Source: Leptogorgia sarmentosa (lineage: Eukaryota). From it: DNA of 64,000 nt. Numbering within the stretch: position 1 is the first letter of the stretch; every line of letters begins with the position of its first letter. A program made the translations under genes and the position numbers. Positions 14,501 to 45,400 of this stretch are shown piece by piece. The stretch lies in NCBI GenBank assembly GCA_964658305.1, contig OZ210884.1:1054001-1118000 (forward strand), in the 5' to 3' direction. The notes beneath the pieces are model-generated. The model worked only from the letters and a program-made list of their open reading frames with translations, did no database searches and was not told the origin of the DNA.

Positions 14501-15227
14501 AGAAACAAAGTACTTGATATTGGTGTCGAGTAGTTGCGTAAAATTAGTATACTCTAATTGTTAATACTCATTGACATGATATTATAGCCTTCAATTTTCT
14601 CAACTTGCCCATTCAACGATTATTTTAAAAGTCGTGTCATGATCGAAAGTGTATACCAAGATTACAAGCTAGCCAAGCAAAATAATTTCCTTTTTTGTCC
14701 GCACATTTACCAAACACTCGCAACTGGAATTAATCGCAGAAGGAAATTTCCCAACTGTTTCTCCAAAAGTCTTTATATGGTAATTCACAAAGAGAGAAAC
14801 AAAAAAATGTCGACAACAGGAAATAACGTTAACGTTGTTTGTTATGCAAGGAAATTGTAATGTAAAATACTTACGAAAAGTGTAAAAGACCAGGCCGTAT
14901 TGCCTGTCAAACCATTCAAGCTAACCTTGGATTTTGCACAACCATTACATGAATGGTCATGATACGTATGGAAGTGTGTACCAAAATTACTACCAATGTA
15001 ATTTCGTTTATTGTGATATGGAAGTGGAAGTGTATACCTGAATTGCTAGCAATGCTATTTCGTTTCTCGTTCACATATTGACGATGATATTGTTTTAAAT
15101 CAAATTTAAGTTTAATGACATATATTCTGCAAGTTAAAAAACTGTCAATAAAAACCCCGGTAAAACCCATATTTATGCTATTATTTCCTGATTTTTAAAA
15201 AATAGGCCGAAAAATATATGAATTATT
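11524..15227. repeat. Tandem triplication of a ~1.37-kb unit; third copy internally deleted
   Basis: Units begin TGAAAAGATCCCATTAGCTGG at 11524, 12896 and 14263; copy 3 jumps from GGAAATTGTA to AAAATACTTACG near 14860. Confidence 0.92.
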
Positions 15228-18413: not shown

Positions 18414-19175
18414 TCATATGAAAGGTTGTGCAGGCTCATAATGGTTGGCCTGAAGACTAAACTTAACACAATTGACATATTGTTGAGTGACGTGATCATA
18501 GTTATGTGTCGCGCCTTCAGTGAACCAATTTTCACCATACGTTCGGCGCAGATATTCGTCAGCATTGGCAGGACAGTTAAGTTCGATATCCCCGAATAAT
18601 CTCTTTTCCATTTTATCTAAATCTTTGTTCTGATAATATTCTTCCGGCCATAAACTTCTGCCTGACCCGGCAGCAATATGAGATATCATTGCTTTTCTCT
18701 TCATAATAAAAATATCACAAAAGGGGTAACGATGCTGATGGTATTCATTTGGTAATTTGTCGGAATCGGTTCTATGATACACTCGATAACCAAATGTCGG
18801 CACTTCAGTGATTTCGCAGCCATTTTCTGACAACATAAGTTTGAAAGAACCTTTAATCTTGGTTTCATCTTTTTTGTGCACACAAAAATCAAGGTCATCA
18901 TCCCATGGTATCAAACCTCGATGTCGAACACAGCCGAGCAGAGTTCCACCGCTGGCCCAAGAAACAATGCCCAACGCATCAAAACATTTTTGTAGGATTC
19001 GTGCAAGCGCATACAATCGTATAACAACCGTTGTGTTGGTATAGACTAGCTGATTCGTTCTCGACCATTTTGTTTGTTGTTGACCACAGGTCTCCGATGT
19101 TGTTTCGTGTAACCAATTGGGTATCAATTCATCGTTATCATCTTCTGTAACTTCAGCAACAGCGGGTTTTTCCAT
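18414..19175 (-). CDS. LicD/fukutin-family nucleotidyltransferase-fold protein, ~253 aa
   Basis: Signature WASGGTLLGCVRHRGLIPWDDDLDF, plus CDIF and P-x(5)-YL-x(3)-YGENW; AG acceptor just upstream of the ATG of MEKPAV, so an upstream exon is possible. Confidence 0.9.
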   Translation of the reverse strand: MEKPAVAEVTEDDNDELIPNWLHETTSETCGQQQTKWSRTNQLVYTNTTVVIRLYALARILQKCFDALGIVSWASGGTLLGCVRHRGLIPWDDDLDFCVHKKDETKIKGSFKLMLSENGCEITEVPTFGYRVYHRTDSDKLPNEYHQHRYPFCDIFIMKRKAMISHIAAGSGRSLWPEEYYQNKDLDKMEKRLFGDIELNCPANADEYLRRTYGENWFTEGATHNYDHVTQQYVNCVKFSLQANHYEPAQPFI

Positions 19176-21214
19176 CAGCCTAAAATCATCCAACATAAAA
19201 ATCAAGAAAAAAATTTGATTGATACAAATTCATGTACAATAAATTGACGACAAAACCCATTGTTGTTGTTTGTCATGCTTTTCATAATTTTACAACAAAT
19301 CGTATAGGAAACTGTTATCATTATTAAAGTGCTAAGTTGGCCATTCATGTGAATACAGAAGAATTCAACAATATTTTAATCAACAATAGTAAATAATATT
19401 TTTGATCCTGAACTGAGTGTAACAATGTTGGACAGTATTGTCGACAACTACATATGAACAATGCAGGCAGCCAAATATTTTAGTATTAGGCAATGATTGT
19501 AATAGAGCTATAATTTCTTTCCACTAAGAGAAAAAATTAAAAATTCTTGTTCTTGAAATATAGGGATATCACAGGACATGGTGTACAAATCAAAGTAGAC
19601 ATAAAAATTAGGCCATTGGGTAAAAATGCAATAAATATAAAGTTAACATATTCACCATGATATCACTAATGTTAGTTTTCTCTAAAGCTATGGTCTTCCT
19701 ATGGCTAGGTAGATTACCACCCTCTGGTACATCTAGCACTGAGTTTATTTAAAAATATATCTTTTTTGGAAATTTGTTGTTGGAAGAAAATGGCTTGCAC
19801 ACAAAAACTAACCTTTTTTAACGGCATTTGATATAATCGAGTCAAAATATGGAGATGACATGTTGTACAAGTTATTGAAGTTTTGTGAAATTTGGTGCCC
19901 GCAGAGTCAACAGAAATATGTCCGAAAACTGGATTTTGCGTTCTTTCCTGCGTGATTACCGATTAATTTATGCATAATTGTTGGATATTTGCATTAATTA
20001 CCAATGCAAATTGCAAGCTAATTCCCAAACTTAACATCGCACGTTCGTCTCAGCGTGCACCAAATTCCTCAAAACTTGAATAGCTTGTATATCATGCTCC
20101 ATATTTTCGTCAGATTAAACAATTTGTGTGAAGAAAACTTATTTTTTGCGCGCAAGCCGTTTTTAATGGAACCACATGTCCCATTCTAAAAAAGTTTGTT
20201 TTTAAAATAAAGTTAGTGCTAGATATACCAGAGGGTGTTAACCCTTTGCTGCATAAATTAATTTTTGAAATATTTCGATTCCTCAGATTATCCCAAAAGA
20301 TAATTAACTGTGTCTTTGATATTTACCACAAAGACATTAAGTTATATATTAAAACAAAGCTTGAATACCATAGATTGTAAATGTGGAATTTATTTGCACA
20401 CATAATAGTTTCCGTAGCAACAGGGCACACTAATTGCCTTGGCAACAGTAATCGGTATGCAAGAGGTTAAGATTCTTTGCCCAATAAACTCAACATACCT
20501 CACCCCAGAAATTATTTTGTCCACTGTGATAAGTACATGCATTATTGGGCTATCTATTTGTATATAGCTTTATCACATAAGAATTTTGCTATGTCGGAAC
20601 TGATTGATATATATGCTGCCCATTGTTATGCAACAGCAGCCAAATATAGTTTGGTTGACATATTCATGTACTTTGAAGCTCCATTTCTCCCTTTACCAAT
20701 TTCCATTTTGGGTTGAAATATCTTAGGGTATACTCTAGATGCACTTTCTCTTGTATAAGATCCAATATTTACATTTTCTAAGCCATTTTCCCATTCATCA
20801 GGTAACTGGAAATTTCCTCATCAATTTACTTGACACTTTATTGTTCAAAACAGCTAGATCAACATCCAATATGTTGCTCGGGGTACTCCAATAAAATATG
20901 TCAGCCTCCCCCATCCAACAAGATGTCAAAATTTAGATATAAATAACGAAATATTTCACGCAATATATGATTATTCCTGCAATACATCCATTGTTTACTC
21001 ACGTTTCAGCCATAATTTAAAGGGACAAGTCCTCATTCTTTCATAAAAGTCGTTTCAAAAGGCATAAATACGAAAATTTTGTATCAAAATGATCGCCATT
21101 ACAATGCGAAAACGATAATATAACATGAAGTATACTACGGCTAGCCACAGAAGCTTCAGCGTGTCAAAATGACCAGAGGCTCAAGGCGTCCGATATATCG
21201 GACGCTGTGCGTTA

Positions 21215-23669: not shown

Positions 23670-23905
23670 CAGGGTGTCGCAAAAAAAGTGACCTCTATAG
23701 AAATCACTCTTTTGTTGTTAATCTCGGGTTATTGCACCTCTGGAAATTTAAATTAGCTTCTGACGAACAGCAACAAAAACACGTGCTGTTATAAATACTT
23801 CTGTCGTTCATGAGCCATTCAATTATATTCGCGAAGGCATATAGGAACGCACGTTTGACAACAAAAGAGCTGATTTCTATAGATGTCACTTTTTGGGACA
23901 CCCTG
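23670..23905. mobile_element. Tc1/mariner-type MITE
   Basis: TA-flanked TIRs CAGGGTGTC...GACACCCTG, extended by ~40 bp of inverted match. Confidence 0.85.
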
Positions 23906-23907
23906 TA

Positions 23908-24493
23908 CAGGGTGTCTCAAAAAAAAGGTAATCGAACTTTGGCATGCCATTGTGCGTTAATTACTGGGTGTACGAACGTGATTTTTGCATGGTCATAAAG
24001 ATCAAGGTCTTAGCAGTTGAATGACATATTTCTTGTACGATATGGAAGAAAATCAGGCAAATGCGAGCGTGTTGAAAAATCTCGGTGAAAAACGCATTCT
24101 TTCACCTCTGCGCCTAATTAAAGCAGTGCATAACAAAAGAAAAATGCAATTCATCACGAATGTGTCATGGTAACAAAGATTTTATCAGGATTATTAATAA
24201 TTATGCATAATCGGGTCGATTGTTGAAGGGAAGGTCGTCATCTTCGAGTCCCAGAGGGAGTTAATTTTGAATAAGTTTAGCTGCAATTCTCAGAGGTGAA
24301 AGAATGCGTTTTTCACCGAGATTTTTCAACACGCTCGCATTTGCCTGATTTTCTTCCATATCGTACAAGAAATATGTCATTTAACTGCTAAGACCTTGAT
24401 CTTTATGACCATGCAAAAATCACGTTCGTACACCCAGTAATTAACGCACAATGGCATGCCAAAGTTGGATTACCTTTTTTTTGAGACACCCTG
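23908..24493. mobile_element. Tc1/mariner-type foldback MITE (family copy 1)
   Basis: TA-flanked CAGGGTGTCTCAAAAAAAAGGTAATC with ~200-bp TIRs; near-identical copy at 59284-59866. Confidence 0.92.
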
Positions 24494-24509
24494 TATAATA
24501 CCTAAATAA

Positions 24510-24702: not shown

Positions 24703-24889
24703 ATATATAGTTCAACGATAATACCTCATTACATTCAGGTTGTTTGATTGGTGAATTATGGTCACGTGATATTGAATAGGAAGTTCCATTTCCCAAGAGT
24801 GCAATAGTACGAATACTACTGCACTCTGTTTTTTCAGTAACTCCCATCCTTCAAAACGCTCTTCGGACAGTGATCGCAGTAATATAAAA

Positions 24890-25132
24890 TGTGGTTAGAA
24901 ATCGTGGTTATAAAACGTGGTTATAAACCGTGGTTATAAAACGTCGTTATAAACCGTGGTTATAGAACGTGGTTATAAATCGTGGTTATAAAACGTGGTT
25001 ATAATTCGTGGTTATAGCCAAGTGGTTATAAACCGTGGTTATAGAACGTGGTTATAAACAGTGGTTATAAAACGTGGTTATAAACCGTTGTTGTAAACCG
25101 TGGTTATAAAACGTGGTTGTAAACCGTGGTTA
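24890..25132 (+). repeat. 13-bp tandem array (AAAACGTGGTTAT) x ~19
   Basis: Directly visible, with CGTGGTT core. Confidence 0.95.
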
Positions 25133-25356
25133 AGACCCAAGTACTAAATGTTGTTCCTTTTCTGTTCAAATGCAAATTTCGTACATGAAAACGCTTAAAA
25201 AGCGAACGCGATTTACACTTTGCCCATAAACATTGCACCGTTCGCCGAGTGTTCAGAAAAGTTATTAGGGAAGAAAAGAAAAGGAAAGTAAAGAAAAGGA
25301 AAGCAAGGAAAGGACAGTGAAGAAAAGGGAAGGAAAGTGAAGAAAAGTGAACAGAA

Positions 25357-28100
25357 ATGCCTCCGCCAAAACCACGGAAAGAGTTAGACTCAAAGCGACT
25401 ACAAAACTCGCTTAGAGCCAACATTTTGAGCTTGGTAAGTACATGCAAGTATTCCCTTGTCTTCCTGCAAATGAATGCACGTACTGTAGCTTCAAATAAA
25501 CTTCCCTATTTTACGTTCATTAGATTAGACCCAAACAGCGAGCAGTGGCGTGTCGCGCTATTTGGCGAGTTAGCCCTGCAGATATAGAGCTGGCCAGGCT
25601 ACAGATCGCCTCTAAGAGGCTCCTCCTCAACGATGCCATCGCTTCCATCGAAGGTGTCATGTTTTACTTTTCATGCATATCGAGCGTATGTTCCAATCCG
25701 AACACCAGCAAAGGTCAACGGAGCAACGCCAATGTTGGAGAAACCAGCTATCCTTGCGTGTCGTTTTTTATCGTCTACCAGCCAAATGAGAAATGCGACG
25801 ACGACACATTCTTTGCGGCCTTACATAACCAGGACGTTGAGCCGGAAATTAGACCCATCCGTGTGAGAAACGGCGGGAATCACGATATGGAAAGTGCGGC
25901 GCGCCAACTCTTCCAAACCGTCAAGGACCATGACAACGGTTCAATGCAGCAGATGGTGGACGCCTCCAACCAGTACTGCTATGACAACGCGCCGCATTCG
26001 TCAGGTGAAAGCGACGACGAAGATGAAGGGGAGGCCGAGCAATTCCATCCAACCCACTTTCCCACGCATCCTTGTTCTTTCGTGCTTGTCAGCCATTGTG
26101 GAGACGTGGAAGAATTGAAGGAGGCCCTAAGAAAATTGGAATCCGACGGGCTAGTCTTGGACGCCCAAGTACGCGATGAATGTGATAAAGGCCCATCGAA
26201 TACAGCATGCGACGACACCATTGCCACCATACGTAAAATTGAACGCGTCATGGCGTTGTGTAATCACGCGTTGTACCGAGGTGAGATCTACGGAAGACCC
26301 GATGGAGCCCGAATCAGTTACGTACGCTTGATGGATGTGTCCAGCTACCTGAACAAGCTGCTTGCGAACGATGCGCTGAACGAGAACCTTGCGAAAAACT
26401 TCATCACCATCCAAAGATTCCTTGCCCATCCAGCCTGCGAGATTGTGGAACAAATCCGCTTCGACCTTAATCTGATAGAAGTGTCGAACGGCTTCTGCTT
26501 CTCAATCTCCGACAGAGCATTCCTCCCCGATCCCATCCACGAATCGATGATTGGCAAGGTATCCCCGAGAGCGTACGTCCCGTACGAATGTTCAGCGGCC
26601 CCTCAACCTCACCACTTTCGCGAAGGCATCCTCAATTCCTTCCCCGAACGGCTTGTTCGTGTCCAATTTCTGAATAAGTTCTATCAGTGTTTGCTGGCTC
26701 ACAAAATGCCGCAGAAGACGAGAAAATTGGTTGTCACCGGCCCACGTGACTCTGGCAAGACATCTTGGGCGAGTATCTTTCGGCGCATCATCCCCGAAGA
26801 ATACATCGCGTCCATAACCAACGAACGGCAATTCTCCGCAGCCATGATAACGAACGACACGCAACTCGTCTTCATCGACGAATGGTCAGAGAACACCATG
26901 AGCGCCGAACTCGCGAAAAAGGTTCTGCAAGGTGGCTGGATGGTCACCGCCGTCAAGCATTCCCAGCCCAGACGTGTGAACTCACACAGCCCGTTCTATA
27001 TCAACACCAACCAAGTGCCTGACTTCGGTGCAGAAGCTGAGAATGTGGAACGTCGCATTCACATATTCCCAACGCAATCCCTGCCAACTCCAACACCTGG
27101 GATCGACCAATGGCTGTTCGAGAATGCTATGCATTGCATCGCGTGGATGGCAGACCAAATTAACACACATCGAGATTTCATCCCAGCAGCCGAGCTGTGG
27201 TATGAAGACGACGAGAATGTGAGGCATATGGTTCCATCACACAACATCGCCGCGCAGTGGACGAGAACGGACATTGTCAAGATAACCGAGGCAGATATGG
27301 AACCGGAACGACAGCATGTGAATATGGGAGGACCCGACGTAGCCATACATCCTGACTTTCTAGCGGAAGCCAGATCAAGACGTCTCGCCAGAAAGCGTCG
27401 GCGTGCACGCCCTTTAAGCGATAGTTCCTCGCCCGAAAATAGCAGCGAAAACGTGGCGCAAGAAATGGAAACGTACCCATCACACGCAAGTCAGCCGCCC
27501 CGATCGCACACAACGGAAGAACACGCTTCCCAAACGCCAGACGAAGAAAACGCTTCCCAAACGCCAGACGAAGAAGACGCTTCCCAAACGCCAGACGAAG
27601 AAAACGCTTCCCAAACGCCAGACGAAGAAGACGCTTCCCAAACGCCAGACGAAGAAAACGCTTCCCAAACGCCAGACGAAGAAAACGCTTCCCAAACGCC
27701 AGACGAAGAAGACGCTTCCCAAACGCCAGACGAAGAAAACGCTTCCCAAACGCCAGACGAAGAAGACGCTTCCCAAACGCCAGACGAAGAAAACGCTTCC
27801 CAAACGCCAGACGAAGAAGACGCTTCCCAAACGCCAGACGAAGAAAACGCTTCCCAAACGCCAGACGAAGAAGACGCTTCCCAAACGCCAGACGAAGAAA
27901 ACGCTTCCCAAACGCCAGACGAAGAACACGGTTCGAAAACGCCAGACGAAGAACACGGTTCGCAAACGCCAGACGAAGAAGACGCGTTCCAAACCCCAGA
28001 AGCAATCGCATTGCCCTTGAATGAAGAGCCATCGACCTCAACAGGTATCACTCACCCTCCGCCGACGATTTGGAGCAGAATAAAAAATTGGTGGCGTTGA
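25357..28100 (+). CDS. Superfamily 3 (D5/NS1/E1-like) helicase with acidic repeat tail; exons 25357-25434 and 25524-28100
   Basis: Walker A GPRDSGKT, Walker B LVFIDEW, motif C YINTN, arginine-finger-like VERRI; D5_N-like LIEVSNGFCFSI. Phase-0 GTAAGT...TAG intron joins MPPPKPRK... in frame to the 851-aa ORF. Confidence 0.85.
27522..28000 (+). repeat. Coding 30-bp minisatellite (ASQTPDEE[N/D]) x ~16 in the helicase C-terminus
   Basis: Directly visible repeat ACGCTTCCCAAACGCCAGACGAAGAA(A/G). Confidence 0.9.
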
Positions 28101-28350
28101 TTTACATATACATACATATATCGAGTGAAATATAATTAACAGCGTGAACACATGGAACGGACGCAATGAAAGATGAAAACGATCCGATAACAATGTTTAA
28201 AAAATATGATAAAAATATATGCGTCCTTTATTTCTATGAGGTTTCATTATGTCATTATTTCGTTGAGTTGTGCTATTACAGTCTATTAATTACTGTTGGC
28301 TTTTCTTACAACTGTCACATAGAAATTGGTTAGCGTTACAGTACGTAAGA

Positions 28351-28568
28351 AGAAATAGGTTAGGGTCAGACTACGGTTTGGGTTCGGGTTAGTAATTAAT
28401 AACCCCAACCCGGCCCGTAATCTGGCCCTAACCTACTTCTTGATAGGTTAGGGTTAGAGTAAGGTTTGGGTGCGGATTATTTATTAATAACCCTAACCCA
28501 AACCGTAGTCTGACCCTAACCTATCGAGAAATAAGGGCCGGGTTGGGGTTATTAATAATATATATATC

Positions 28569-28607
<39 letters not shown>

Positions 28608-29700
28608 CCCCAACCCGGCCCGTAATCTGACCCTAACCAAGCTTCCAAATACTCATCAAAAGTACTTGAAAGAAAATGTTTGCTTTTATCAAGACTGTCA
28701 CAAAGAAATAGTACACTATCCGGTTGCATTTTTTTTCTAAGTGTCGACTTGATATTTAGTTTGGTGAGAATTCGACCGGCTACCGGCTAACAATACAAAT
28801 CCCTATTAAATGGACCGGCTAACGACCGGCTAAAAGCCAAAATGACCGGCTAACTCCAACACTAGCCGGTTGCATATTTTTTCTAAGTGTCGTAGCAAAG
28901 TAAGTGAAGACGACACTTAGAAAAAATATGCAACCGGCTAGTGTTGGAGTTAGCCGGTCATTTTGTATGTTAGCCGGTCGTTAGCCGGTCGAATTAATAG
29001 GGATTTGTATTGTTAGCCGGTAGCCGGTCCAATTCTCAGCAAACTAAATATCAAGTCGACACTTAGAAAAAATATGCAACCGGCTAGTGTACTATTTCTT
29101 TGTGACAGTCTTGATAAAAGCAAACATTTTCTTTCAAGTAGTTTTTCGTAGGAAAGTAAGTGAAGACGACACTTAGAAAAAATATGCAACCGGCTAGTGT
29201 TGGAGTTAGCCGGTCATTTTGGGTGTTAGCCGGTCGTTAGCCGGTCGAATTAATAGGGATTTGTATTGTTAGCCGGTAGAATTCTCACCAAACTAAATAT
29301 CAAGTCGACACTTAGAAAAAAAATGCAACCGGATAGTGTACTATTTCTTTGTGACAGTATTAATAAAAAAAAACATTTTCTTTCAAGCAGTTTTTCGTAG
29401 GAAAGTAAGTGAAGACGACACTTAGAAAAAATATGCAACCGGCTAGTGTTGGAGTTAGCCGGTCATTTTGTATGTTAGCCGGTCGTTAGCCGGTCCATTT
29501 AATAGGGATTTGTATTGTTAGCCGGTAGCCGGTCGAATTCTCACCAAACTAAATATCAAGTCGACACTTAGAAAAAATATGCAACCGGCTAGTGTACTAT
29601 TTCTTTGTGACAGTCTTGATAAAAGCAAACATTTTCTTTCAAGTACTTTTGATGAGTATTTGGAAGCTTGGTTAGGGTCAGATTACGGGCCGGGTTGGGG

Positions 29701-29746
<46 letters not shown>

Positions 29747-29925
29747 TATATAAATATAATTAAATATAATTGGGGTTATTTATTAGTTATTAATAAATAA
29801 CCCCAACCCGGCCCGTAGTCTGACCCTAACCTATTTCTTGACAGGTTAGGGTCAGATTACGGGCCGGGTTGGGGTTATTAATAAATAATCCACACCCAAA
29901 CCTCACTCTAACGCTAACCTATTTC
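28351..29925. repeat. Complex ~1.55-kb palindrome: one inverted plus three direct ~250-bp units, (TA)n tracts and TTAGGG/TAACCC-like arms
   Basis: ~28570-28893 is the reverse complement of ~29415-29740; symmetry centre loop 28894-28909; direct units start at 28910, 29166 and 29415. Confidence 0.93.
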
Positions 29926-30221
29926 TTTCTCACAGTCTTGATAAAAGCAAACATTATTTGTTCTGTCAGTTGTCATAATTAGGCTTTCTTGTCATTTCTG
30001 GAGTCATGCAATACAAGCAAAAGGATGATGCAAAGTGAATGTATTTAATGTCACAGATTTTTGTATTGTTCCTTTCCACGACTATTATATTATAAGGAGT
30101 GTTGGAAAAAGAATAACACATAGGCAGGTGTAGATTGATTTTTGTATTTCTCTTTACAACATTTTCCCCATGTAATTCACACTAATAATACCAACAATTA
30201 TTTAAGGTTTACACGCAATCA

Positions 30222-31862
30222 TTACACTAATTTCAAGGCTTCCGCCCTCTTTCTTAAAGTATTTGCCACTCTACATGCATGAAAGTTATATTCTGGATGG
30301 CGTAATATCCTTGTCCAACAAAAACCGAACTTTGCAATGCCCAAGCGTAAGGCGTTATCTTCCTCACCTGTGAAGCGAGGGCCTCGAGTACATTTGGCTT
30401 TTTTCGGGCTGGAAACGATGGGCGTGTCTTCGCCAACATGTGTGGGGCCAGACGAGGGCTGTTGTTCATGCTCATCTTCTCTCTGTGAACTATTACTTCT
30501 CTCAATTAATTTTTTCATGCACTCACGTCCTCTCATGGCCACTTCACGGGATCTTTTCTTCTGATAATGTACACGGGCAACGTTGGAGCTATGCTTTTGG
30601 TCTTCAGATATCCACTGCTGTTCGTTTGGCAGGAGAACTTGCGCACTTTCTGTTTCGATGATCTGTCTGTACCTAGTTGGATGAATGTATTTTCCTATTG
30701 CTTCAAACACCAATACACTCAAAAGATTAGAAAGTTTTTGGAACTGTTTACCGTTTCGATTCACCAACACATAGTCGCAAGTAGGTGTGAGAAGGGGCCT
30801 TACATACGCTATATACTTTTCCAGTAACTGGATGCTGCATTCGTCAAAGTAAACACTGTCAAACCCATACGTTTTAGCGGTCTTGAATACTTTCTGATCC
30901 ACTATTCCTTCGTTTCTTTTCGCACATTCAAACATTCGCAAGGTGAGATGTTGGTAGGTCATTGGGCGGCAACCTTTCACTTTGAGGAACATGTAAGCTG
31001 CAACGAATCTGGTGGCAAATGTCACGTCCCCTGTTTTGACTGTAGAAGGTGATATCATACAATTTTCTAATACAGATTTATAACGGTCCTCGTGAAATGG
31101 AATGACGGATTGTATTTCGGAAATACTTGCCCAACTTCTACGGGATTCGAGGGTTTCTATACCCAGTTCGGTGGTCCAATTTGATCTCATGTCTTTGGCT
31201 AAATACCTTCGCGCTCTCTTTACATACACTTCGGTAACTGCGAAGTTTTGAAGCACCGTTGCAGGGGGACGATTGAATTTGCGAAAATCTAGTAAATCAG
31301 AAATACTTGCGACATACCCAATTTGTCCTGAGTGTCCAATACACCACTTCTCTTTGAGAGCGTCCACAAACTTTGTTACTAGTTGTGGAGACCCCAAGGC
31401 GTAATCGATGAGATTAGGTGCATTGAGCACGTCTTCTTCGCCCTCGCCATTCTCGTCACAACAAAACTTTATGAACTTCAATGCTCGGTTAACCGAAACG
31501 TCCGATTGTGTGGCAGATTTGCCGCCGCCACAGCTGCTTTGAAGCCATTTTGAAAACGATCTAGCAAAGTCATTATCTGTGGAACAGCCCGGGACTGCTT
31601 TACCAGATCTTCGCTGCGTTTCGGTGATTGCAAGCGGCGAAAGGCACACTTCGGGCTTTTTGTCAAAATAGTAATACCATGCATGTATACTTTTAACATG
31701 TTTACGACAGCCTCTTTGACTGCCAAATCCTGAATGTTCACAAGCTATTACTGGACAATGATGTAAGCCATCGCTGCCTTTCACCAAATGCAATCGCCTC
31801 GGTTTTGTAAACGCCCCGTCTACAGACTTCCAATCTATTTGAGCTTTTCTACGTGCAAACAT
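30222..31862 (-). CDS. Tyrosine recombinase with N-terminal C2H2 zinc finger and C-terminal Myb/SANT (telobox-like) domain, ~546 aa
   Basis: Catalytic set R (KGCRP), K (FKTAK), HxxR-like (HPTRYR), H...Y (KHSSNVARVHY); CPVIAC...HVKSIH finger; RFTGEEDNALRLGIAKFGFCWTRIL Myb repeat. Start at MFARRK is inferred (ORF open to 32054). Confidence 0.88.
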   Translation of the reverse strand: MFARRKAQIDWKSVDGAFTKPRRLHLVKGSDGLHHCPVIACEHSGFGSQRGCRKHVKSIHAWYYYFDKKPEVCLSPLAITETQRRSGKAVPGCSTDNDFARSFSKWLQSSCGGGKSATQSDVSVNRALKFIKFCCDENGEGEEDVLNAPNLIDYALGSPQLVTKFVDALKEKWCIGHSGQIGYVASISDLLDFRKFNRPPATVLQNFAVTEVYVKRARRYLAKDMRSNWTTELGIETLESRRSWASISEIQSVIPFHEDRYKSVLENCMISPSTVKTGDVTFATRFVAAYMFLKVKGCRPMTYQHLTLRMFECAKRNEGIVDQKVFKTAKTYGFDSVYFDECSIQLLEKYIAYVRPLLTPTCDYVLVNRNGKQFQKLSNLLSVLVFEAIGKYIHPTRYRQIIETESAQVLLPNEQQWISEDQKHSSNVARVHYQKKRSREVAMRGRECMKKLIERSNSSQREDEHEQQPSSGPTHVGEDTPIVSSPKKAKCTRGPRFTGEEDNALRLGIAKFGFCWTRILRHPEYNFHACRVANTLRKRAEALKLV

Positions 31863-32005
31863 ATAAACGATAAAATGTTTGCGAGCAAAAGTACCTTGGC
31901 TTTTATAACAACAACTTATGCAAACTGCATAAATTGAATTTCTTATTAACAGCCTAAGGCACTGCATTGTGAGAGATGTATTGTTCATGACATTGCTTCC
32001 TTCAC

Positions 32006-32292
32006 AAGGGAACAATAAAAGGGAACAACCAAAGGGAACAATAAAAGGGAACAAGAAAAGGGAACAAATCGTTCCACTTTAACACCTATTATATGTGCAA
32101 GAGCGGAACGTTTTGTTCCTAAATAAAGGAACTCCAATTATTATTGTTCCTTAATCAACATTTGTTAAAGCGCTCCGAATTTCGGAACATAGGCGGTGCG
32201 GAACAACTTCAATTGAAACGGAACAATGTGTTCCGTTTAAATAGCTGTTCCTTTTCAAAAGGGGAACTCCCCCTTCATTTACATGTGTTCCT
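32006..32292. repeat. GGAAC/GTTCC motif cluster upstream of the YR gene, including five ~13-bp AGGGAACAA units
   Basis: Tandem units at 32007-32070, followed by dispersed copies in both orientations. Confidence 0.75.
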
Positions 32293-32509
32293 AATATGAT
32301 GTTTTAATATATTCATAGATGATAGTGAAAGATTTTCACTTCTCCTACCACGTATTTGCAAATTTCAATTATTTTTTCGCTTCATTGACCATGCGTATAA
32401 TGTTGTGGTTTGGCCCAATAACGGTTATATGCGCAGCGGACCGTGAATCATGCGAAATTGACCTTTAAATGGCATTGTTAAAGGAACAATATTTAGGGAT
32501 ACGTATTAA

Positions 32510-32657
32510 GAGTATCGTGGGTGAGCATCGTGGTTGAAGTCCGTGGTTGATAATCGTGGTTGAAGTTCGTGGTTGAGTATCGTGGTTGAAGTCCGTGGTT
32601 GCATGATGTACTTCAACCACGATACTGAGTATCGTGGCTGAGTATCGTGGCTGAGTA
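32510..32657 (+). repeat. 13-bp tandem array (GAGTATCGTGGTT) x ~9 plus one inverted copy
   Basis: Directly visible; includes hairpin CCACGATAC-TGA-GTATCGTGG. Confidence 0.92.
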
Positions 32658-32667
32658 ATTCAACCAA

Positions 32668-36400: not shown

Positions 36401-39400
36401 GAATGCTATATCGTAAATATTAATATTCTACTACCTTTCATTCTATCTTGCTAAACCATCCATCTTTTAAAAAGAGATTTAAAATGTCTTTATTAGCTTT
36501 TACAATGTCTTTAATACATCGATTTTACTCGTAGTTGCCCTGACTCTACGCCATTCCAAACCACCACTGCATCTGAGAGATCGTGCTCACATTTTCATGT
36601 CACAGTGACAACTGCTGCGAAATTTGTTTGAGCATGCGCGAATTAGATTGCATGGAGCGCGGGGAAATTGCGTGTGCTCGCGGGAATTTTCAAAATCTAT
36701 AATGGTGGCTTTTGGGTGCAATCGACCACGCCCTAACTACGACGTTTTGTTGACTCGATAATTCATAGAAAAGAACAAAGAAAATCACTACTTTATCGCT
36801 AACGTTGATTTTCTCTGTCGAAATTCCGTAAAATACTTGTAAAATTTCTCCGTTAATAAAGATATAAACCATTAAAAACACTCACAGTCCGTGCTTCATC
36901 GGATCATAAACTCTTGACTTTCGCCTCGAGATTTATATGTGATTGAAATTGCTAAAATCTATAAATTTACAAAAACAAAATTGGCTCAAGTTACTCGTGT
37001 GATGATGTGCAAATGCACGTTATTGACGTGTAAGAACAGAACTACTTAACTTCTTCACCTGTACATTTCTAGACACCCATCTTTCTGACAGGCATGTGTC
37101 CGAAAGTCTCAACGGTGGGACTGTTGTCGTGAAGGACGAAAACCTAAAAGACGAAAACGTGAAGAGCAAGGACCTGAATGACGAAAATGTGGAGGGCCAG
37201 GACCTGAACAACAAAAACGTGAAGGGCCAGGACCTGAAAGATAAAAACGTGAAGAGCAAGGACGTGGAGGGCAAGGATGTGAAGGGCAAGGACCTGAAAG
37301 ACAAGAACGTGAAGAGCAAGGACGTGGAGGACAAGGATGTGAAGGGCAAGGACCTGAAAGACAAAAACGTGAAGAGCAAGGACGTGGAGGACAAGGATGT
37401 GAAGAGCAAGGACCTGAAAGCCGAAAACGTGAAGAGCAAGGACCTGAAAGACAAAAACGTGAAGAGCAAGGACGTGGAGGACAAGGATGTGAAGGACCAG
37501 GACCTGAAAGACAAAAACGTGAAGAGCAAGGACGTGGAGGACAAGGATGTCAAGAGCAAGGACCTGAAAGCCGAAAAAGTGAAGAACAAGGACCTGAAAG
37601 CCGAAAACGTGAAGAGCAAGGACCTGAAAGCCGAAAACGTGAAGAGCAAGGACCTGAAAGACAAAAACGTGAAGAGCAAGGACCTGAAAGACAAAAACGT
37701 GAAGAGCAAGGACGTGGAGGGCAAGGATGTGAAGGGCAAGGACCTGAAAGCCGAAAACGTGAAGAGCAAGGACCTGAAAGCCGAAAACGTGAAGAGCAAG
37801 GACCTGAAAGCCGAAAACGTGAAGAGCAAGGACCTGAAAGCCGAAAACGTGAAGAGCAAGGACCAGAAAGCCGAAAACGTGAAGAGCAAGGACCTGAAAG
37901 ACGAAAACGTGAAGAGCAAGGACCTGAAAGCCGAAAACGTGAAGAGCAAGGACCTGAAAGCCGAAAACGTGAAGAGCAAGGACCTGAAAGACGAAAACGT
38001 GAAGAGCAAGGACTTGAAAGACGAAAACGGGAAGAGCAAGGACGTGGAGGGCAAGGATGTGACGAGCAAGGACCTGAAAGCCGAAAACGTGAAGAGCAAG
38101 GACCTGAAAGACGAAAACGTGAAGAGCAAGGACCTGAAAGACGAAAACGTGAAGAGCAAGGACGTGGAGGACAAGGATGTGAAGGACCAGGACCTGAAAG
38201 ACAAAAACGTGAAGAGCAAGGACGTGGAGGACAAGGATGTGAAGGACCAGGACCTGAAAGACAAAAACGTGAAGAGCAAGGACGTGGAGGACAAGGATGT
38301 GAAGAGCAAGGACCTGAAAGCCGAAAAAGTGAAGAGCAAGGACCTGAAAAACAAACACGTGAAGAGCAAGGACGTGGAGGGCAAGGATGTGAAGGGCAAG
38401 GACCTGAAAGACAAAAACGTGAAGGGCCAGGACCTGAAAGACAAAAACGTGAAGAGCAAGGACGTGGAGGGCAAGGATGTGAAGAGCAAGGACCTGAAAG
38501 ACGAAAACGTGAAGAGCAAGGACCTGAAAGCCGAAAACGTGAAGAGCAAGGACCTGAAAGCCGAAAACGTGAAGAGCAAGGACCTGAAAGCCGAAAACGT
38601 GAAGAGCAAGGACCTGAAAGACAAAAACGTGAAGAGCAAGGACCTGAAAGACGAAAACGGGAAGAGCAAGGACGTGGAGGCCAAGGGTGTGAAGAGCAAG
38701 GACCTGAAAGACAAAAACTTGAAGAGCAAGGACCTGAAAGACAAAAACTTGAAGAGCAAGGACCTGAAAGACGAAAACGCGAAGAGCAAGGTCTTGAAAG
38801 ACGAAAACGGGAAGAGCAAGGACGTGGAGGGCAAGGATGTGAAGAGCAAGGACCTGAAAGCCGAAAACGTGAAGAGCAAGGACCTGAAAGACGAAAACGT
38901 GAAGAGCAAGGACTTGAAAGACGAAAACGGGAAGAGCAAGGACGTGGAGGGCAAGGATGTGAAGAGCAAGGACCTGAAAGACCAAAACAGGGAGAGCAAG
39001 GAGGTGGAGGACAAGGATGTGAAGAGCAAGGACCTGAAAGACCAAAACGTGAAGAGCAAAGACCTGAAAGACCAAAACGTGAAGGGCCAGGACCTGAAAG
39101 ACCAAAACGTGAAGAGCGAGGACCTGAAAGACCAAAACGTGAAGAGCAAGGACCTGAAAGACCAAAACGTGAAGGGCAAGGACCTGAAAGACCAAAACGT
39201 GAAGGGCAGGGACGTGGAGGGCAAGGGCGTGAAGAGCAAGGACCTGAAAGACCAAAACGTGAAGGGCCAGGACCTGAAAGACCAAAACGTGAAGAGCGAG
39301 GACCTGAAAGACCAAAACGTGAAGAGCAAGGACCTGAAAGACCAAAACGTGAAGGGCAAGGACCTGAAAGACCAAAACGTGAAGGGCAAGGACCTGAAAG

Positions 39401-42400
39401 ACCAAAACGTGAAGGGCAGGGACGTGGAGGGCAAGGGCGTGGAGGGCAAGGACCTGAAAGACCAAAACGTGAAGGGCAAGGACCTGAAAGACCAAAACGT
39501 GAAGGGCAAGGACCTGAAAGACCAAAACGTGAAGGGCAGGGACGTGGAGGGCAAGGGCGTGGAGGGCAAGGACCTGAAAGACAAGAACGTGAAGGGCAAG
39601 GACGTGGAGGACAAGGATGTGAAGAGCAAGGACCTGAAAGACGAAAACGTGAAGAGCAAGGACCTGAAAGACGAAAACGTGAAGAGCAAGGACCTGAAAG
39701 ACGAAAACTTGAAGAGCAAGGACCTGAAAGACAAAAACTTGAAGAGCAAGGACCTGAAAGACGAAAACGCGAAGAGCAAGGTCTTGAAAGACGAAAACGG
39801 GAAGAGCAAGGACGTGGAGGGCAAGGATGTGAAGAGCAAGGACCTGAAAGACCAAAACAGGGAGAGCAAGGAGGTGGAGGACAAGGATGTGAAGAGCAAG
39901 GACCTGAAAGACCAAAACGTGAAGAGCAAGTACCTGAAAGACCAAAACGTGAAGGGCCAGGACCTGAAAGACCAAAACGTGAAGAGCGAGGACCTGAAAG
40001 ACCAAAACGTGAAGAGCAAGGACCTGAAAGACCAAAACGTGAAGGGCAAGGACCTGAAAGACCAAAACGTGAAGGGCAAGGACCTGAAAGACCAAAACGT
40101 GAAGGGCAGGGACGTGGAGGGCAAGGGCGTGGAGGGCAAGGACCTGAAAGACCAAAACGTGAAGGGCAAGGACCTGAAAGACCAAAACGTGAAGGGCAAG
40201 GACCTGAAAGACCAAAACGTGAAGGGCAGGGACGTGGAGGGCAAGGGCGTGGTGGGCAAGGACCTGAAAGACAAGAACGTGAAGGGCAAGGACGTGGAGG
40301 ACAAGGATGTGAAGAGCAAGGACCTGAAAGACGAAAACGTGAAGAGCAAGGACCTGAAAGACGAAAACGTGAAGAGCAAGGACCTGAAAGACGAAAACGT
40401 GAAGAGCAAGGACCTGAAAGACAAAAACGTGAAGAGCAAGGACGTGGAGGGCAAGGATGTGATGGGCAAGAACCTGAAAGACCAAAACGTGAAGGGCAAG
40501 GACGTGGAGGGCAAGGATGTGAAGAGCAAGGACCTGAAAAACAAAAACGTGAAGAGCAAGGACGTGGAGGGCAAGGATGTGAAGGGCAAGGACCTGAAAG
40601 ACCAAAACGTGAAGGGCAGGGACGTGGAGGGCAAGGACGTGGAGAACAAGGACGGAAGAAACAAAGAAGGAAAGGATGATAACAAGAAGAAAACGGGTGA
40701 AGAAACAGAGAGCTATTGGAGACACGGTGAATCTAGCAAAAGAAGAAACACAAGATCCTCTTCCTCTGCTCAGGTATGTTTTGCATTGAAAAAGAAAAAA
40801 TAAACTTACCATTGAGGTGTTGATGACAGCAAATTCAATTCTTTCATTGTAATAAGAAAAGCAGAAATGTTATGGTAAAAACCCAAATCTTATTCGAGCG
40901 TCGTGTTTTAACCCGAATTACTACTGACTTGTACTTCGATGGGTTTACTGAATTTACCAGGATTATAAAAAATTGGGCCAATGTACTTAAGTCATTCATT
41001 TACTTTAATGAGTGAACTTCGTTATTTTCGAGTCCTAGAAGGAGTAATTTCCAATAAGTTTAGTCTTAATTCTCAACGGCGAAAATATGCGATTTCGAAT
41101 GGCAATATTTTTTAGGCTCATACTTGCTTCGCTTATAAATAGAGAGTACTTCATATTTGGCGAGTGCTTACGATTTTATTTTATCAGTTTACGATGGATC
41201 GCCAAACAAACGAGTGAGCGCAGCGAAGGAGTGAGCCAACTGTGAAGTAATTTGTTTATTATATGAGTATAAAAAAGAAGCGATATTGACATACAACGAT
41301 TACAAACGCGACATGAGCGAAATATTTTAATATAAAATTTCTTACGACTTATTGCTTTGTTTCTTTGCATAAAATGCAAGCAGGAGCTATTTTTCAAGTT
41401 AATGAATCCATAAATGTTTTCTTTATTACCTTACGTTTTAATGAAGATTGGTGAAAGTGCCATAAATGTCTCTCCCAAAATCGGACTCCATGTAGCTTTA
41501 CACTGGCCTGCGAACAGGTAGAGGCAAGAGAACGCTGCTCTACGCACGTAAATTTCTATACTCATATAATAATGAATTTTTTAATGAAATTTTATAATAC
41601 ATTTTTAATTAGATTAAGAAAAAATTATGCTAAATCATTACAGCAGTTTTGAGTGATTCGCGACCACCTAACACGAAATATTTGACAGCAATTATTGTTG
41701 GTATGGCATTCAATAACTTCATGACCAGAAAGCGGCCAAATGCGAATTGAGAGTAATAAACAGTTCATAGTAAGCAAATGAGTAACAAAATCCCATGCAT
41801 TTTACCCCAAACAAGCAGAAACTAGGCCTTATTGTCGATTAATTAGAAAAGTCAAAAACAACAATTGCTGTCAAATATTTTGTGTTAGGTGGTCGCTAAT
41901 CACTCGAAACTTCTGTAATAAGAAATTTTTTTTTCATACGCGTGATGTTCTTCCATCTTACAAACTTCGGGTACACTTTATTCTTCGGGTATACACTTGA
42001 TCAAGAAATTTTCTGTTGATAGAATTTTCTCGAAAATTTGACATTTTATTAACTTTCTTTGCCAACATTAGAAAATTTTCAAAGGTTTACAATAATTTAA
42101 CAAGGAAAAAGTAAAAATTTGGGTCTGATTTTGAAACATTTTCCACTGTGACGACATGTATGGTTTCGAGCGCAATTTGGAATTAACATGCACCAGTGAG
42201 TTTTCCAGACCTCAAAATAGGTCTGTGGAAAAAATCACGAGTTTATGTGCACGAGAAACCATACTATCACTTGTTAATAGTTTGTATAAAAGTGAAGAGA
42301 ATTGTAGTGTTAACTTAAGTCTCAAAGCGAAATTTCACCGGCAGAGTTTTCTTGCTTAGTTTATTTCACATTTTACAGCGAGAACGGGGTCAAAAATTCA

Positions 42401-45400
42401 CCCAAGCACGTAACTTTTGTTAGTCTTGTTTGAGATAAAGTTTTTTCCGTCATAAGAAAAAGGTAAAAGCTCTTTGACCCGAAGACAATTTTCACTTTGT
42501 TTTGCGCGGCCTCCATGTTTGTTTTCAATGGTTTTGAAGCAATCTGTAGCTTGAGCTCTAATTTGATTGGCTCAAGGATCAAGACCCTGGGTACGAGGTT
42601 GTGTGTTTCGGAAAATTGCACTGTGATTACAGAAAATTGCACTTGATAACAGAAAATTGCACTGTGATAACACAAAATTGCACTGTGGTTACAGAAAATT
42701 GCACTGTGATAACACAAAATTGCACAGTGATTACAGAAAATTGAACTGTGATTTGGGATTAACTACACTGAAACGAACTAATCGCAGTCGAGTAATACTT
42801 TGATGTATATTATTAACTGACCCAAATAACAGTGCAATTTTCTGTTATCACCGTGCAATTTTCTGTTATAACTTTGAACCAATGGAAGTACAGCTCGAGC
42901 GACTGATTGCCTTGAAAACAAAACAAACATGACGGCCGCGCTAGACAAAGTAAACATTTCTTCCGGTCGCAAATATAGCTTTTATCTTTTTGTTGTGACG
43001 GAAAAGATTTTATCTCAAACAAGACTAAGAAAAGTTATGTGCTTGGGGGAATTTTTGAAACTGTTTTCGTTGTAAAATGTGAAAAAAAACTAAGCAGGAA
43101 CTCTTGCAATTTTGTGGTCTTTGAAAAACTCACTCATGCGTATTATCTTCAAATTGAACTCGAAACCATGCTGTTGCCTATAATTATACTAATATTGTCA
43201 CACTAGTTCAGTCGAGTGCACGTTGATTTTACCAGGACAATTACTGGCGAAATGATTCTCAATTGAAATGTTACAAGCCATTTTTAAAAAATTTTCGTGT
43301 TCTAAACGCCCGACAAACACGACCAAATTGTTTGTTTTTATGCATTTAGTATTTGCTTTGTGTTGAACAGGAAAATGGAAATGGAGATGGTTACTATTAC
43401 AGAAAGCCACCGTTGGATGATTCAAGACATAAACAGAACAATAGGAAAGCGAAAAGCACAATTCTAAAGTATGTTTATAAATTAGGTTAAATCATTGTTT
43501 CATAAACAACTCGTTAGCGCACGTGATTATGCTTGCACTTTGGAATGAACCTTTTCCCTTTTAGGCGAACTTTTGAAATTGGGTAGTGTTTCCACGAAAT
43601 TTCTCGTATCTCCCAAACGTTCACGCGTGTTTCCATAACTATAGAAACACAGAAAATGTTTTCTATTTCTTAAGAATTACGTACGGCAAATAATTTCGAA
43701 TGTGACTATCACTTCCGTGCGTACATAATACAAAAGTATAGAAAATTGGCAAATTTTAAATGACTGGTTTTTCCACTTTACACGTCATTTTGTATAAACC
43801 AAACTTCACAATTTAGTAAATTGATGCATGATGTTTTCGCTCACTACAAATTTGCTCACTGAAGACGACGTGAAAACCACCTGAATGACGTCCTAAAATG
43901 ACGAAGATGACCTACTAGACTGAATCGAAATTAAAATTGAAGATTTTGCAAGGGCGCGAAGCGCCCGCAGTAAAGTCAAGATTATATGAGAACACAGAAG
44001 TGAGATATAACAATGCTTTATTCTCCAAACTCACATTACACAGCTGATGAAGCCTAGGTACTAAAGTAAAACGTCATAACTTGGTAACCTAGCCTTATAA
44101 CTTCAGTTCGAAATCAGCGAGCAGCTAAGAAGCTAACAATATTAAACAATCTAACAATATCTGAATATCTAACAATATCCTAGAACAGTAGAACTAAACT
44201 CCAAAAGGTACCACACGATCATCCACGTCCAAAGCGTCCACCTTACAAGAGAAAAAAGATATGTGTGATCCCGCAGGGCGGGAGGGTGGGATTGTTATAT
44301 CTCACTTCTGTGTTCTCATATAATCTTGACTTTACTGCGGGCGCTTCGCGCCCTTGCAAAATCTTCAATTATATTTCAAACACAGAAGCTCGATATAACA
44401 ATGCTTGTTCAACGCTATAAACCCAAGATCAAAATAGGTCGCAAAACCCTTCGCACAAGCCCAATCACGCGGAAATCGCCAAAACCGTCCTCGCATAAAC
44501 GCCATCGAAGGCTGGTCGGTAGTAAAATCTAGCAAAGGTGGTCGTCCCTGACCAGTCAGCCATTTTAAGGACTTCCTCCAGGGGTACCCCCCCGGCCCTT
44601 GCCTTGGATGTCGAAGCTGACCGCGTTGAATGGCCTTTAAAAACTGCTGTATCTATCCCTGCGCTACTGAGGATTGACCGAATCCAACGAGCAATGGAGC
44701 ACGATTTCACCGGGCGGTGGGGTCTGTGGAAACTAATCAAGAGCTGGTTTGGGGTGGTAGGCCCCATGACTGGTCGAAATGAAGCCGTGCGCGCAATATA
44801 GCACTGTAAGCAGCGAACCACGCAGAGGTTTTCACACTCCCCGTACTTGGCAAAGAAAACTGACGTCACCACAGAAGATGTCTTGGTTAGCCCTGGTAGT
44901 TTAAACTCAACCCCCTCCGGCAAGGTACGCATATAGCGGAGGTCGAGGAGTTTAAGCTCGGAAGAGCGCTTGGGAGCGGTTAGGGCGAGCAAAATAGCTA
45001 GCTTTTGCGTAAGCAATTTCAACGACAAATCCTCGTTTCGGGGAAGTGAGCGCAAATACATCAGGACCGCATCCACGCTCCATGACTGCTGATAACGCGG
45101 CAAAGCTGGGCGCAGGTTAAGGACGCCCCTGAGCAAACGAATAACAAGTGGGTGCTGGCCCACAGGAAAACCATCAATCGGCGGAAGGACACCCGACAAA
45201 GCGGAACGATACGTGTTGATTGTTCTGTATTCCAAACCCTCTTCGAACGAATGAGCCAGAAAGCTAGTTATATCGGCCAAAGTGGGGCAAAATGGATCAG
45301 TTTCCCGTCTGAGACACCAGCTATGCCATTTTTTCCAGGCGGAGTTATAAACTGCGCTTGTGCCCGGCCGCCAAGCTGCCAAGATGAGTTTGGAAGCATC

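What the first reader, a model, noticed from the sequence alone, without database searches (positions are those of the whole stretch)
24703..32660. Candidate new mobile element: SF3 helicase + Myb-tailed tyrosine recombinase around a giant palindrome
Seen: two intact convergent genes (SF3 helicase, YR), a 1.55-kb palindrome between them, related 13-bp arrays at both ends, and no RT, DDE transposase, HUH Rep, pPolB or capsid ORF. Known: Cryptons encode a YR but no helicase, DIRS need RT, Helitrons use HUH plus SF1 helicase, and YR + D5/SF3 pairs occur in Polinton-like viruses and phage satellites, normally with more genes. Inference: a minimal two-gene integrate-and-replicate element (plasmid- or satellite-like) in an animal genome.
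Basis: partly seen in the sequence, partly recalled or inferred. Interest (0 to 1): 0.93.

Follow-up and report, generated by a model that had tools for sequence, protein, structure and literature searches.

The report
Repeat-seeking coral transposon with viral helicase
This is a 7.4-kb jumping gene, likely from a soft coral, that sits between two tandem-repeat arrays and carries genes for a DNA cut-and-rejoin enzyme and a virus-type helicase; it likely loops out as a circle that the helicase would help to copy, which could explain how this little-studied kind of transposon multiplies.

Summary
The two-gene element is real, and its ends can be defined: 25130-32511, each end carrying the same 6-bp core (TTAAGA) beside an inverted 14-bp arm.

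One gene encodes a zinc finger-tyrosine recombinase-Myb protein with an intact R-K-H-R-H-Y pattern. The other, with an intron, encodes a D5-like SF3 helicase. A related locus shows the right end joined to the left end with exactly the predicted spacing. A distant coral contig holds a helicase remnant between the same kind of ends next to a recombinase unit, inserted in a microsatellite.

The 13-bp arrays lie outside the ends and are likely the host target. The 'palindrome' is an imperfect inverted repeat with a 521-bp spacer. This copy's helicase lacks a conserved ~150-aa C-terminal domain.

The element works like CryptonV (repeat-targeting cnidarian Cryptons, Repbase 2012). I found no helicase-bearing Crypton in the searchable papers, but could not read Repbase. 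No capsid, primase or polymerase was found, and replication is inferred, not shown. Verdict: new variant of a known kind.

The parts
24883..25129 (+). Left flanking 13-bp minisatellite (TATAAAACGTGGT units); outside the element, likely host target
   Evidence: element-type contig starts at 25134 (X3 record 9); relatives have other repeats at this place
25130..25135 (+). Left 6-bp core TTAAGA (direct repeat, predicted crossover spacer)
   Evidence: L012 junction fits best with one core counted
25136..25157 (+). Left terminus with arm CTAAATGTTGTTCC (25144-25157), inverted to the right arm; predicted YR binding site
   Evidence: same motif and spacing in L004, L005, L006, L008, L012; weaker in L007
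25357..25434 (+). Helicase gene exon 1 (26 codons), followed by an 89-nt GT-AG intron 25435-25523
   Evidence: matches the start of the annotated Dendronephthya protein P0134
25524..28100 (+). Helicase gene exon 2: unknown alpha/beta N-terminal domain, D5-like collar and SF3 ATPase (Walker A GPRDSGKT, Walker B FIDEW), acidic linker; conserved C-terminal domain missing
27516..28000 (+). 27-bp in-frame tandem repeat (18 copies) in the helicase linker
28350..29927 (.). Imperfect foldback: arms 28350-28893 and 29415-29927, two extra 256-bp units between; ACCGGCTA repeats and GGTTAGGG hairpins; candidate origin or an old resident MITE
   Evidence: related unit downstream of the helicase in L006, remnant in L008
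30222..31859 (-). Tyrosine recombinase, 545 aa: N-terminal C2H2-like finger, core-binding and catalytic domains (R298, K326, H393, R396, H423, Y432), C-terminal TRF1-like Myb
32006..32300 (.). Subterminal cluster of GGAAC/GTTCC words upstream of the YR (18 in 32001-32500 against a window mean of 0.74 per 500 nt); the same clustering occurs in L001
32483..32505 (+). Right terminus with arm GGAACAATATTTAG (32483-32496)
   Evidence: contigs of three runs end at 32502-32508
32506..32511 (+). Right 6-bp core TTAAGA
32512..32657 (+). Right flanking 13-bp minisatellite (GAGTATCGTGGTT-type units); outside the element, likely host target

Best explanation
This is a 7.4-kb two-gene element bounded by a 6-bp direct repeat with inverted arms and lying between two 13-bp tandem-repeat arrays; it is likely a CryptonV-like transposon whose tyrosine recombinase would join its two ends into a circle and reinsert it into tandem repeats, and whose D5-like helicase is predicted to let that circle be copied by host polymerases. 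Shown: the ends, the genes, their folds, an end-to-end junction in a relative, repeat flanks in relatives, and helicase-less derivatives. Inferred: excision as a circle, origin binding and unwinding by the helicase (an E1/large-T-like role, since no primase or polymerase gene was found), target recognition through the Myb domain, and the foldback as origin. This copy's helicase lacks a conserved C-terminal domain and may be defective.
For: Ends: TTAAGA lies at both junctions, with 13/14-matching inverted arms. Contigs of X3, X5 and X6 end at 32502-32508 and an X3 contig begins at 25134. Junction: a 60-nt stretch of L012 matches the in-silico circularised element at the junction at 47/60; the next best place gives 32/60, the best place in the linear window 36/60, and other core lengths 31-36. 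Targets: 6 of 13 metagenome helicase loci reach the left end; 5 of the 6 have a different simple or tandem repeat directly outside it and the sixth (L012) has the opposite end. Linkage in a distant lineage: L001 (YR 46% identical) is a head-to-tail pair of units within a (TTTCTCTC)n tract. Unit 1 holds a decayed helicase (E 1.2e-8, plus two pieces at 0.005) with its 5' end towards end B, as here; unit 2 holds the YR. Five contig lengths are shared between 71 YR and 119 helicase records, one of them only 34,153 nt. YR: best Z 11.6 to XerA (rmsd 15.3, 255 aligned) and 10.4 to the XerD catalytic domain (rmsd 4.1, 162 aligned); Myb Z 8.4, rmsd 0.9 to TRF1. Catalytic-pattern motifs are present in 111-117 of 120 homologues. 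Helicase: Foldseek E 1.7e-10 to poxvirus E5; Z 15.1 to the SaPI5 primase-helicase (rmsd 6.2, 304 aligned); pN 0.20-0.36 against saturated pS 0.74-0.82; 836 clusters at E<=1e-10.
Against: No second full-length copy with both genes was seen on one contig. 0 of 13 helicase loci (1.3-4.2 kb) contain YR coding sequence, and 2 of 3 YR loci (1.6 and 2.0 kb) are too short to tell. No free circle is shown: L001's junction is a chromosomal tandem and L012's may be too. Helicase-less forms exist: an X5 contig skips 25379-26614, and L001 unit 2 has no helicase, so the helicase may be dispensable. This copy lacks the C-terminal domain seen in 7 of the 7 distinct loci whose frames were aligned there (L013 is the L011 gene). 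The left and right arrays differ in unit, and the reconstructed empty site has 10 nt between CGTGG cores instead of 8, so a clean insertion into one array is not demonstrated. The N-terminal domain has no assigned function. Foldseek E-values for the YR were only 4e-3 and above.
Confidence: 0.6

Rival explanations
1. Copy-out mechanism: the recombinase exchanges only one strand between the two ends and the helicase peels that strand off as a circle, leaving the donor in place, as bacterial strand-biased circularising elements (SEs) do.
For: It explains copy gain without an origin. [quoted passage not shown] The cores differ among L001's three junctions (TCT, CTA, TTT), as expected when a spacer is carried over from the previous site. 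The core here is not a clean copy of the array period.
Against: The helicase has the collar plus AAA+ layout of dsDNA replicative D5/E1 helicases. The passages read in the SE paper mention no helicase (0 occurrences). Active Cryptons were seen to excise cleanly (PMC9977147).
Confidence: 0.2
2. An ordinary CryptonV that captured a helicase gene from a Polinton-like or other DNA virus and carries it as a passenger not needed for movement.
For: Helicase-less derivatives are present (L001 unit 2). This copy's helicase has lost a conserved domain. An earlier unchecked note describes a 4.2-4.7 kb finger-YR-Myb element in TAG repeats and mentions no helicase (e1-9540896). PLVs carry both SF3 helicases and YRs patchily (PMC4642659).
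Against: The helicase keeps the same place and orientation relative to the ends in families 46-64% identical and in a distant coral lineage. It shows strong amino-acid constraint. It has a conserved intron. A passenger with no benefit to the element would be expected to decay.
Confidence: 0.12
3. A reduced endogenous virus or satellite (PLV- or PICI-like) that is replicated by its helicase and packaged by a helper virus.
For: The integrase plus primase-helicase pairing recalls phage satellites (best Z to the SaPI5 primase-helicase) and PLVs.
Against: No capsid, packaging ATPase or primase frame lies within the defined ends. Four scans of viral contigs found no relative of either protein. The gene has a spliceosomal intron. 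All named close homologues are cnidarian nuclear genes.
Confidence: 0.08

Closest known systems
CryptonV (Kapitonov & Jurka, Repbase Reports 2012;12:2034; not read, seen only as one sentence and a reference in PMC8869645)
   Same: YR-encoding DNA transposon from cnidarians, inserted specifically in simple repeats.
   Different: The sentence seen mentions only a YR; here a second gene encodes an SF3 helicase. The target here is a 13-bp minisatellite. Sequence-level membership, and whether any Repbase CryptonV or 'Crypton-H' entry already has a helicase, could not be checked.
Crypton superfamily in general (CryptonF, S, A, I; PMC3212892, part 1 of 7 and passages read)
   Same: Short 6-bp terminal direct repeats, YR with R-H-R-Y, proposed circular intermediate, YR sites made of inverted arms around a spacer.
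   Different: That paper has 0 occurrences of 'helicase' or 'Myb', and says animal CryptonA/I have no C-terminal domain and no terminal repeats. No member of the YR alignment hit DUF3504 among the 16 Pfam families listed.
Polinton-like viruses with OLV11-like YR and SF3 helicase (PMC4642659, passages read)
   Same: YR integrase plus SF3 helicase in a eukaryotic integrating element.
   Different: [quoted passage not shown]
D5/E5, ASFV PrimPol and SaPI primase-helicases; papillomavirus E1
   Same: Collar plus SF3 AAA+ fold with intact Walker A, Walker B, motif C and arginine-finger-like residues.
   Different: No primase or HUH domain was detected in the ~240-aa N-terminus (profile searches blank; not folded). 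A separate family-specific C-terminal domain follows a long acidic linker.
Bacterial SE elements (PMC9345347, passages read)
   Same: YR-driven circularisation with a 6-bp spacer carried along.
   Different: Bacterial, with four core genes and no helicase mentioned; only an analogy for the mechanism.

Membership tests
Crypton | Encodes a YR with catalytic R-H-R-Y residues | tested here: met
   Fold matches XerA/XerD/Cre; R298, H393, R396, Y432 conserved in 98-100% of 55 aligned sequences. Catalytic roles are assigned by pattern.
Crypton | No reverse transcriptase or DDE transposase | tested here: met
   Only two long genes lie between the ends.
Crypton | Short (4-6 bp) direct repeats at both termini | tested here: met
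   TTAAGA at 25130 and 32506; spacing confirmed by L012.
Crypton | Extrachromosomal circular intermediate | tested here: inconclusive
   End-to-end junctions in L012 and L001, but L001 is a chromosomal tandem and L012 cannot be told apart from one.
CryptonV | Cnidarian host | tested here: met
   Named homologues come from Paramuricea, Dendronephthya and Oculina; the window's own host is inferred from these.
CryptonV | Insertion in microsatellites or simple repeats | tested here: met
   Window arrays; 5 of 6 loci reaching the left end; both ends of L001.
CryptonV | YR groups with Repbase CryptonV proteins | not testable with these tools
   Repbase and Dfam sequences are not held; the 2020 review by DOI was not held.
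CryptonV | Gene content (YR only, or with a second gene) | not testable with these tools
   Original description not readable; only 3 papers in the library name CryptonV, none describing gene content in the passages read.
Polinton-like virus | [quoted passage not shown] | tested here: not met
   No further coding frame within the defined ends; L001's units also lack long frames.
Helitron / Replitron / CRESS-type Rep | HUH endonuclease domain | tested here: inconclusive
   No Pfam or PDB profile match for the N-terminal domain; it was not folded, so a divergent HUH or origin-binding fold is not excluded.
SF3 (D5-like) helicase | Walker A, Walker B and motif C in an SF3 AAA+ fold with collar domain | tested here: met
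   Invariant DSGK, W272, Y310-I311-N314; folds.
D5 primase-helicase | N-terminal AEP primase | tested here: inconclusive
   No hit; domain not modelled.

The most novel reading that the evidence does not exclude
These are the autonomous masters of the repeat-targeting cnidarian Cryptons: an undescribed, widespread group of capsid-less 'integrate and replicate' elements in which the recombinase releases a circle and a virus-derived SF3 helicase initiates its episomal replication from the internal foldback, like a papillomavirus or 2-micron-type replicon living in animal genomes. The many YR-only copies would depend on it in trans.
Probability: 0.33. Interest if true: 0.85.

Novelty: new variant of a known kind. 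Interest (0 to 1): 0.66.

Why it matters
[quoted passage not shown] A Crypton-type element that carries its own replicative-type helicase, with ends defined to the base and a predicted circle junction, makes that question directly testable by one inverse PCR and an episome assay. It would also link DNA transposons to small DNA viruses and satellites, and it offers a eukaryotic tyrosine recombinase with short defined sites and a repeat-targeting habit. Both protein families are abundant in coral genomes but are named only 'uncharacterized', 'hypothetical' or 'partial' in the records seen, and Pfam misses the recombinase domain.

Tried and rejected
No host genome was held, so copies and empty sites could not be counted directly.

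Database searches that gave nothing: viral contigs, no relative in 4 scans. A search for longer, fused helicase forms (1176-3355 aa) found none among 2690 candidates, which is weak evidence. PHROGs gave only a low-complexity hit and one weak hit. PDB sequence searches of the helicase core, N-terminal domain and C-terminal domain gave nothing convincing. The Atlas gave no usable hit for the N-terminus and did not answer otherwise. No RNA holder was listed, which says nothing about expression. Earlier scan notes had no sequence look-alikes.

Rejected ideas: (a) The arrays as terminal repeats of the element: they lie outside the cores and differ among relatives. (b) L001 as a divergent or circularly permuted arrangement, my first reading: it is a tandem of two convergent-type units. 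(c) Left and right flanks as halves of one inverted-repeat host element: only the arrays align.

Contig depths are given only as hints because the tool says they are no copy number and cannot rank genes.

Literature: nine answered full-text searches listed no paper describing a helicase-encoding Crypton; I saw listings for most and passages of twelve papers. Repbase Reports, Dfam text and subscription papers were not searchable, and no supplements were opened. 'Crypton-H' appears as an undefined label; its meaning is unknown to me.
Full report
Observation. Two long convergent frames are present: 25659-28100 (+) and 30222-31988 (-). Homologues show that the first gene starts with a 26-codon exon at 25357-25434 and an 89-nt GT-AG intron, conserved in position in six related loci, giving 884 aa. 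The second gene's homologues begin at the ATG at 31859, giving 545 aa. The intergenic 'palindrome' spans 1578 nt but consists of arms of 544 and 513 nt around 521 nt of two extra tandem 256-bp units. The 13-bp arrays exist, in the same orientation, with different unit variants left and right. No whole genome was held.

The recombinase. Pfam sees only a weak Myb match (50 of 55 aligned homologues). An AlphaFold model (pLDDT 76) gave Foldseek rows dominated by Xer, Cre and phage integrases but only at E 4e-3 and above. VIA-align gave Z 11.6 to XerA (rmsd 15.3, 255 aligned), 10.4 to the XerD catalytic domain (rmsd 4.1, 162 aligned) and 8.4 to the TRF1 Myb domain for residues 492-543 (rmsd 0.9, 49 aligned). 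R298, K326, H393, R396, H423 and Y432 are conserved in 98-100% of 55 sequences, and the four motif patterns occur in 117, 113, 111 and 111 of 120 listed homologues. The search found 894 homologues among 5037 candidates; named ones are from Paramuricea (up to 75% over the full length) and Oculina (about 47%). The host is therefore likely an octocoral (inference).

The helicase. The core model (pLDDT 89) matches poxvirus E5/D5, ASFV PrimPol and SaPI5 primase-helicase (E 1.7e-10), giant-virus and phage D5-like proteins (E 3.5e-15), and SF3 helicases generally (Z 15.1 SaPI5, rmsd 6.2, 304 aligned; 11.6 papillomavirus E1). The family is large: 162 hits among 1724 candidates, and 836 clusters at E<=1e-10. 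Constraint is strong: pN 0.20-0.36 against pS 0.74-0.82 in three pairwise comparisons. The ~240-aa N-terminal domain is conserved but matched nothing and was not folded. Relatives carry a ~150-aa C-terminal domain after the acidic linker (L004, L005, L006, L008, L010, L011, L012). The window's copy runs from the linker straight into the terminal WW motif and lacks it, so it may be defective. Two assemblies of one distant homologue (L011, L013) end in poly(A) and differ by a 151-nt GT-AG segment, which points to a spliced transcript in that relative; nothing shows expression of this copy.

The ends. Six of 13 metagenome helicase loci reach upstream far enough. All six share a motif of the form 6-bp core + CC...AAAT-TTGTTCC, ungapped in five and weaker in L007. 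In the window this puts the left end at 25130. The same arm recurs inverted at 32483-32496, and TTAAGA lies at both 25130 and 32506. Contigs from four public runs (at most four samples, two studies; one may be the window's own source) agree: contigs of X3, X5 and X6 end at 32508, 32506 and 32502, and an X3 contig starts at 25134. Summed depth over the flanking arrays is tens of times higher than over the genes, a hint only that they are genome-wide repeats. Outside the left end the relatives have different repeats: a 22-bp unit (L004), a 30-bp unit (L005), (ATC)n (L006), a short AAC run (L007) and a 21-bp unit (L008). The arrays are therefore best read as targets. The reconstructed empty site is 2 nt off the 13-bp period and the two arrays differ, which I cannot explain; a carried-over spacer or recombination between two insertions are possibilities.

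End-to-end junctions. L012 has the right-end sequence joined directly to the left end upstream of its helicase. Sixty nt of it match the circularised window element at the junction at 47/60, against 32/60 for the next best place, 36/60 for the linear window and 31-36 for other core lengths. L001, a 19-kb coral-like contig filed under a bacterial MAG, holds two units head to tail within a (TTTCTCTC)n tract. Unit 1 (3349-7298) carries a decayed helicase facing inward from end B (E 1.2e-8). Unit 2 (7302-12411) carries the YR facing inward from end A and no helicase. Both L001 and the window have a cluster of GGAAC/GTTCC words upstream of the YR. The convergent layout between paired ends is thus shared by lineages whose YRs are 46% identical. 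These junctions show end joining; they do not show a free circle.

Linkage, for and against. For: L001, L012, and five contig lengths shared between 71 YR records (the closer hits and listed cluster members; most of the 45-48% hits were left out) and 119 helicase records, including one of 34,153 nt; the other four are 0.27-1.1 Mb and say less. Against or neutral: none of the 13 helicase loci (1.3-4.2 kb) includes YR sequence, and L002 and L003 are too short. An X5 contig skips 25379-26614, a helicase-deleted form. Contig depth over the YR exceeded that over the near-identical helicase in all four runs (ratios 3-14), but the tool states that such depths are no copy number and cannot rank genes, so I take it only as consistent with many helicase-less derivatives.

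The foldback. Its ACCGGCTA and GGTTAGGG words occur almost only there in the 64-kb window. A related tandem unit lies about 530 nt downstream of the helicase in L006 (74% over 160 nt), with a remnant in L008 of the same family. Contigs run from the YR into the outer arm without differences (29859 onwards in X3). L001 has an unrelated foldback downstream of its YR. It may be a conserved cis element such as an origin, or an old MITE carried by the family.

Mechanism. Most likely the YR binds the inverted arms, recombines the two cores to release a 7376-bp circle, and integrates circles into tandem repeats or into another copy's end, giving tandems. The helicase, lacking a detectable primase, would act like papillomavirus E1 or large T antigen (established knowledge of SF3 initiators, recalled), opening an origin for host polymerases and so supplying copy gain. 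The steps after end joining are inferred. Rivals are strand-biased copy-out, passenger cargo and a helper-dependent satellite.

Comparison with known systems. PMC8869645 (passages) says some CryptonV families, a YR-encoding lineage, insert specifically in microsatellites, citing a Repbase report on cnidarian target-specific Cryptons that I could not read. PMC4455052 and PMC5753468 only list the name (passages). PMC3212892 (part 1 of 7 and passages) gives the 4-6 bp direct repeats and the circle model, and has no mention of helicase or Myb. PMC4642659 (passages) defines PLVs by capsid and ATPase genes, absent here. PMC9977147 (passages) records Crypton copy gain despite clean excision. PMC13465017, PMC13465315, PMC12130899, PMC8502044, PMC11118728 and PMC9345347 were searched by term only. 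Nine full-text searches listed no helicase-encoding Crypton; supplements and Repbase were not seen. The element works like CryptonV; membership by sequence is untested; the SF3 helicase partner is the part that appears undescribed.

Verdict. Real element, ends defined, first reading partly supported. New variant of a known kind; interest 0.66, limited by the unread Repbase description, the lack of a second full-length linked copy and the untested replication step.

Noticed in passing
window 43991-48737: DIRS-like retrotransposon: overlapping gag-like, RT/RNase H and YR frames (44465-48563) between 128-bp inverted repeats; its YR is unrelated to the one studied (no tblastn hit).
   Followed up: no
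window 52126-58525: BEL/Pao-type LTR retrotransposon with 163-bp identical LTRs and a 1406-aa pol frame; looks recent.
   Followed up: no
window 37027-40803: 1258-aa open frame made of a 30/60-bp repeat (KDLKDKNVKS-type), open in several frames; function unknown.
   Followed up: no
window 23904-24497 and 59280-59870: Two 98%-identical copies of a ~594-bp MITE with 205-bp inverted repeats.
   Followed up: no
window 18414-19229: Single-exon frame resembling a LicD-type nucleotidyltransferase (motif recalled, not searched).
   Followed up: no
window 7358-8410 and 11524-15227: An 8-bp satellite (131 copies) next to an ILEI/PANDER-like exon (recalled), and a 1.37-kb tandem duplication.
   Followed up: no
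L001, L002, L003: Contigs filed under bacterial MAGs in genome contigs carry this cnidarian-type YR (75-90% to an Oculina protein in L001) with microsatellites and tRNA-like repeats; probably animal DNA contaminating the bins.
   Followed up: partly
L001 3349-12411: The three junctions of the tandem insertion have different 3-nt cores (TCT, CTA, TTT), as if a spacer is carried over from the previous site.
   Followed up: partly
L011 2507-2657 versus L013: Poly(A)-ended assemblies of a distant helicase homologue differ by one GT-AG segment, suggesting a spliced transcript.
   Followed up: partly
window 25508-27504 (contigs): Contigs about 10% different from the helicase gene occur in all four runs, indicating further diverged subfamilies in the same hosts.
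   Followed up: no
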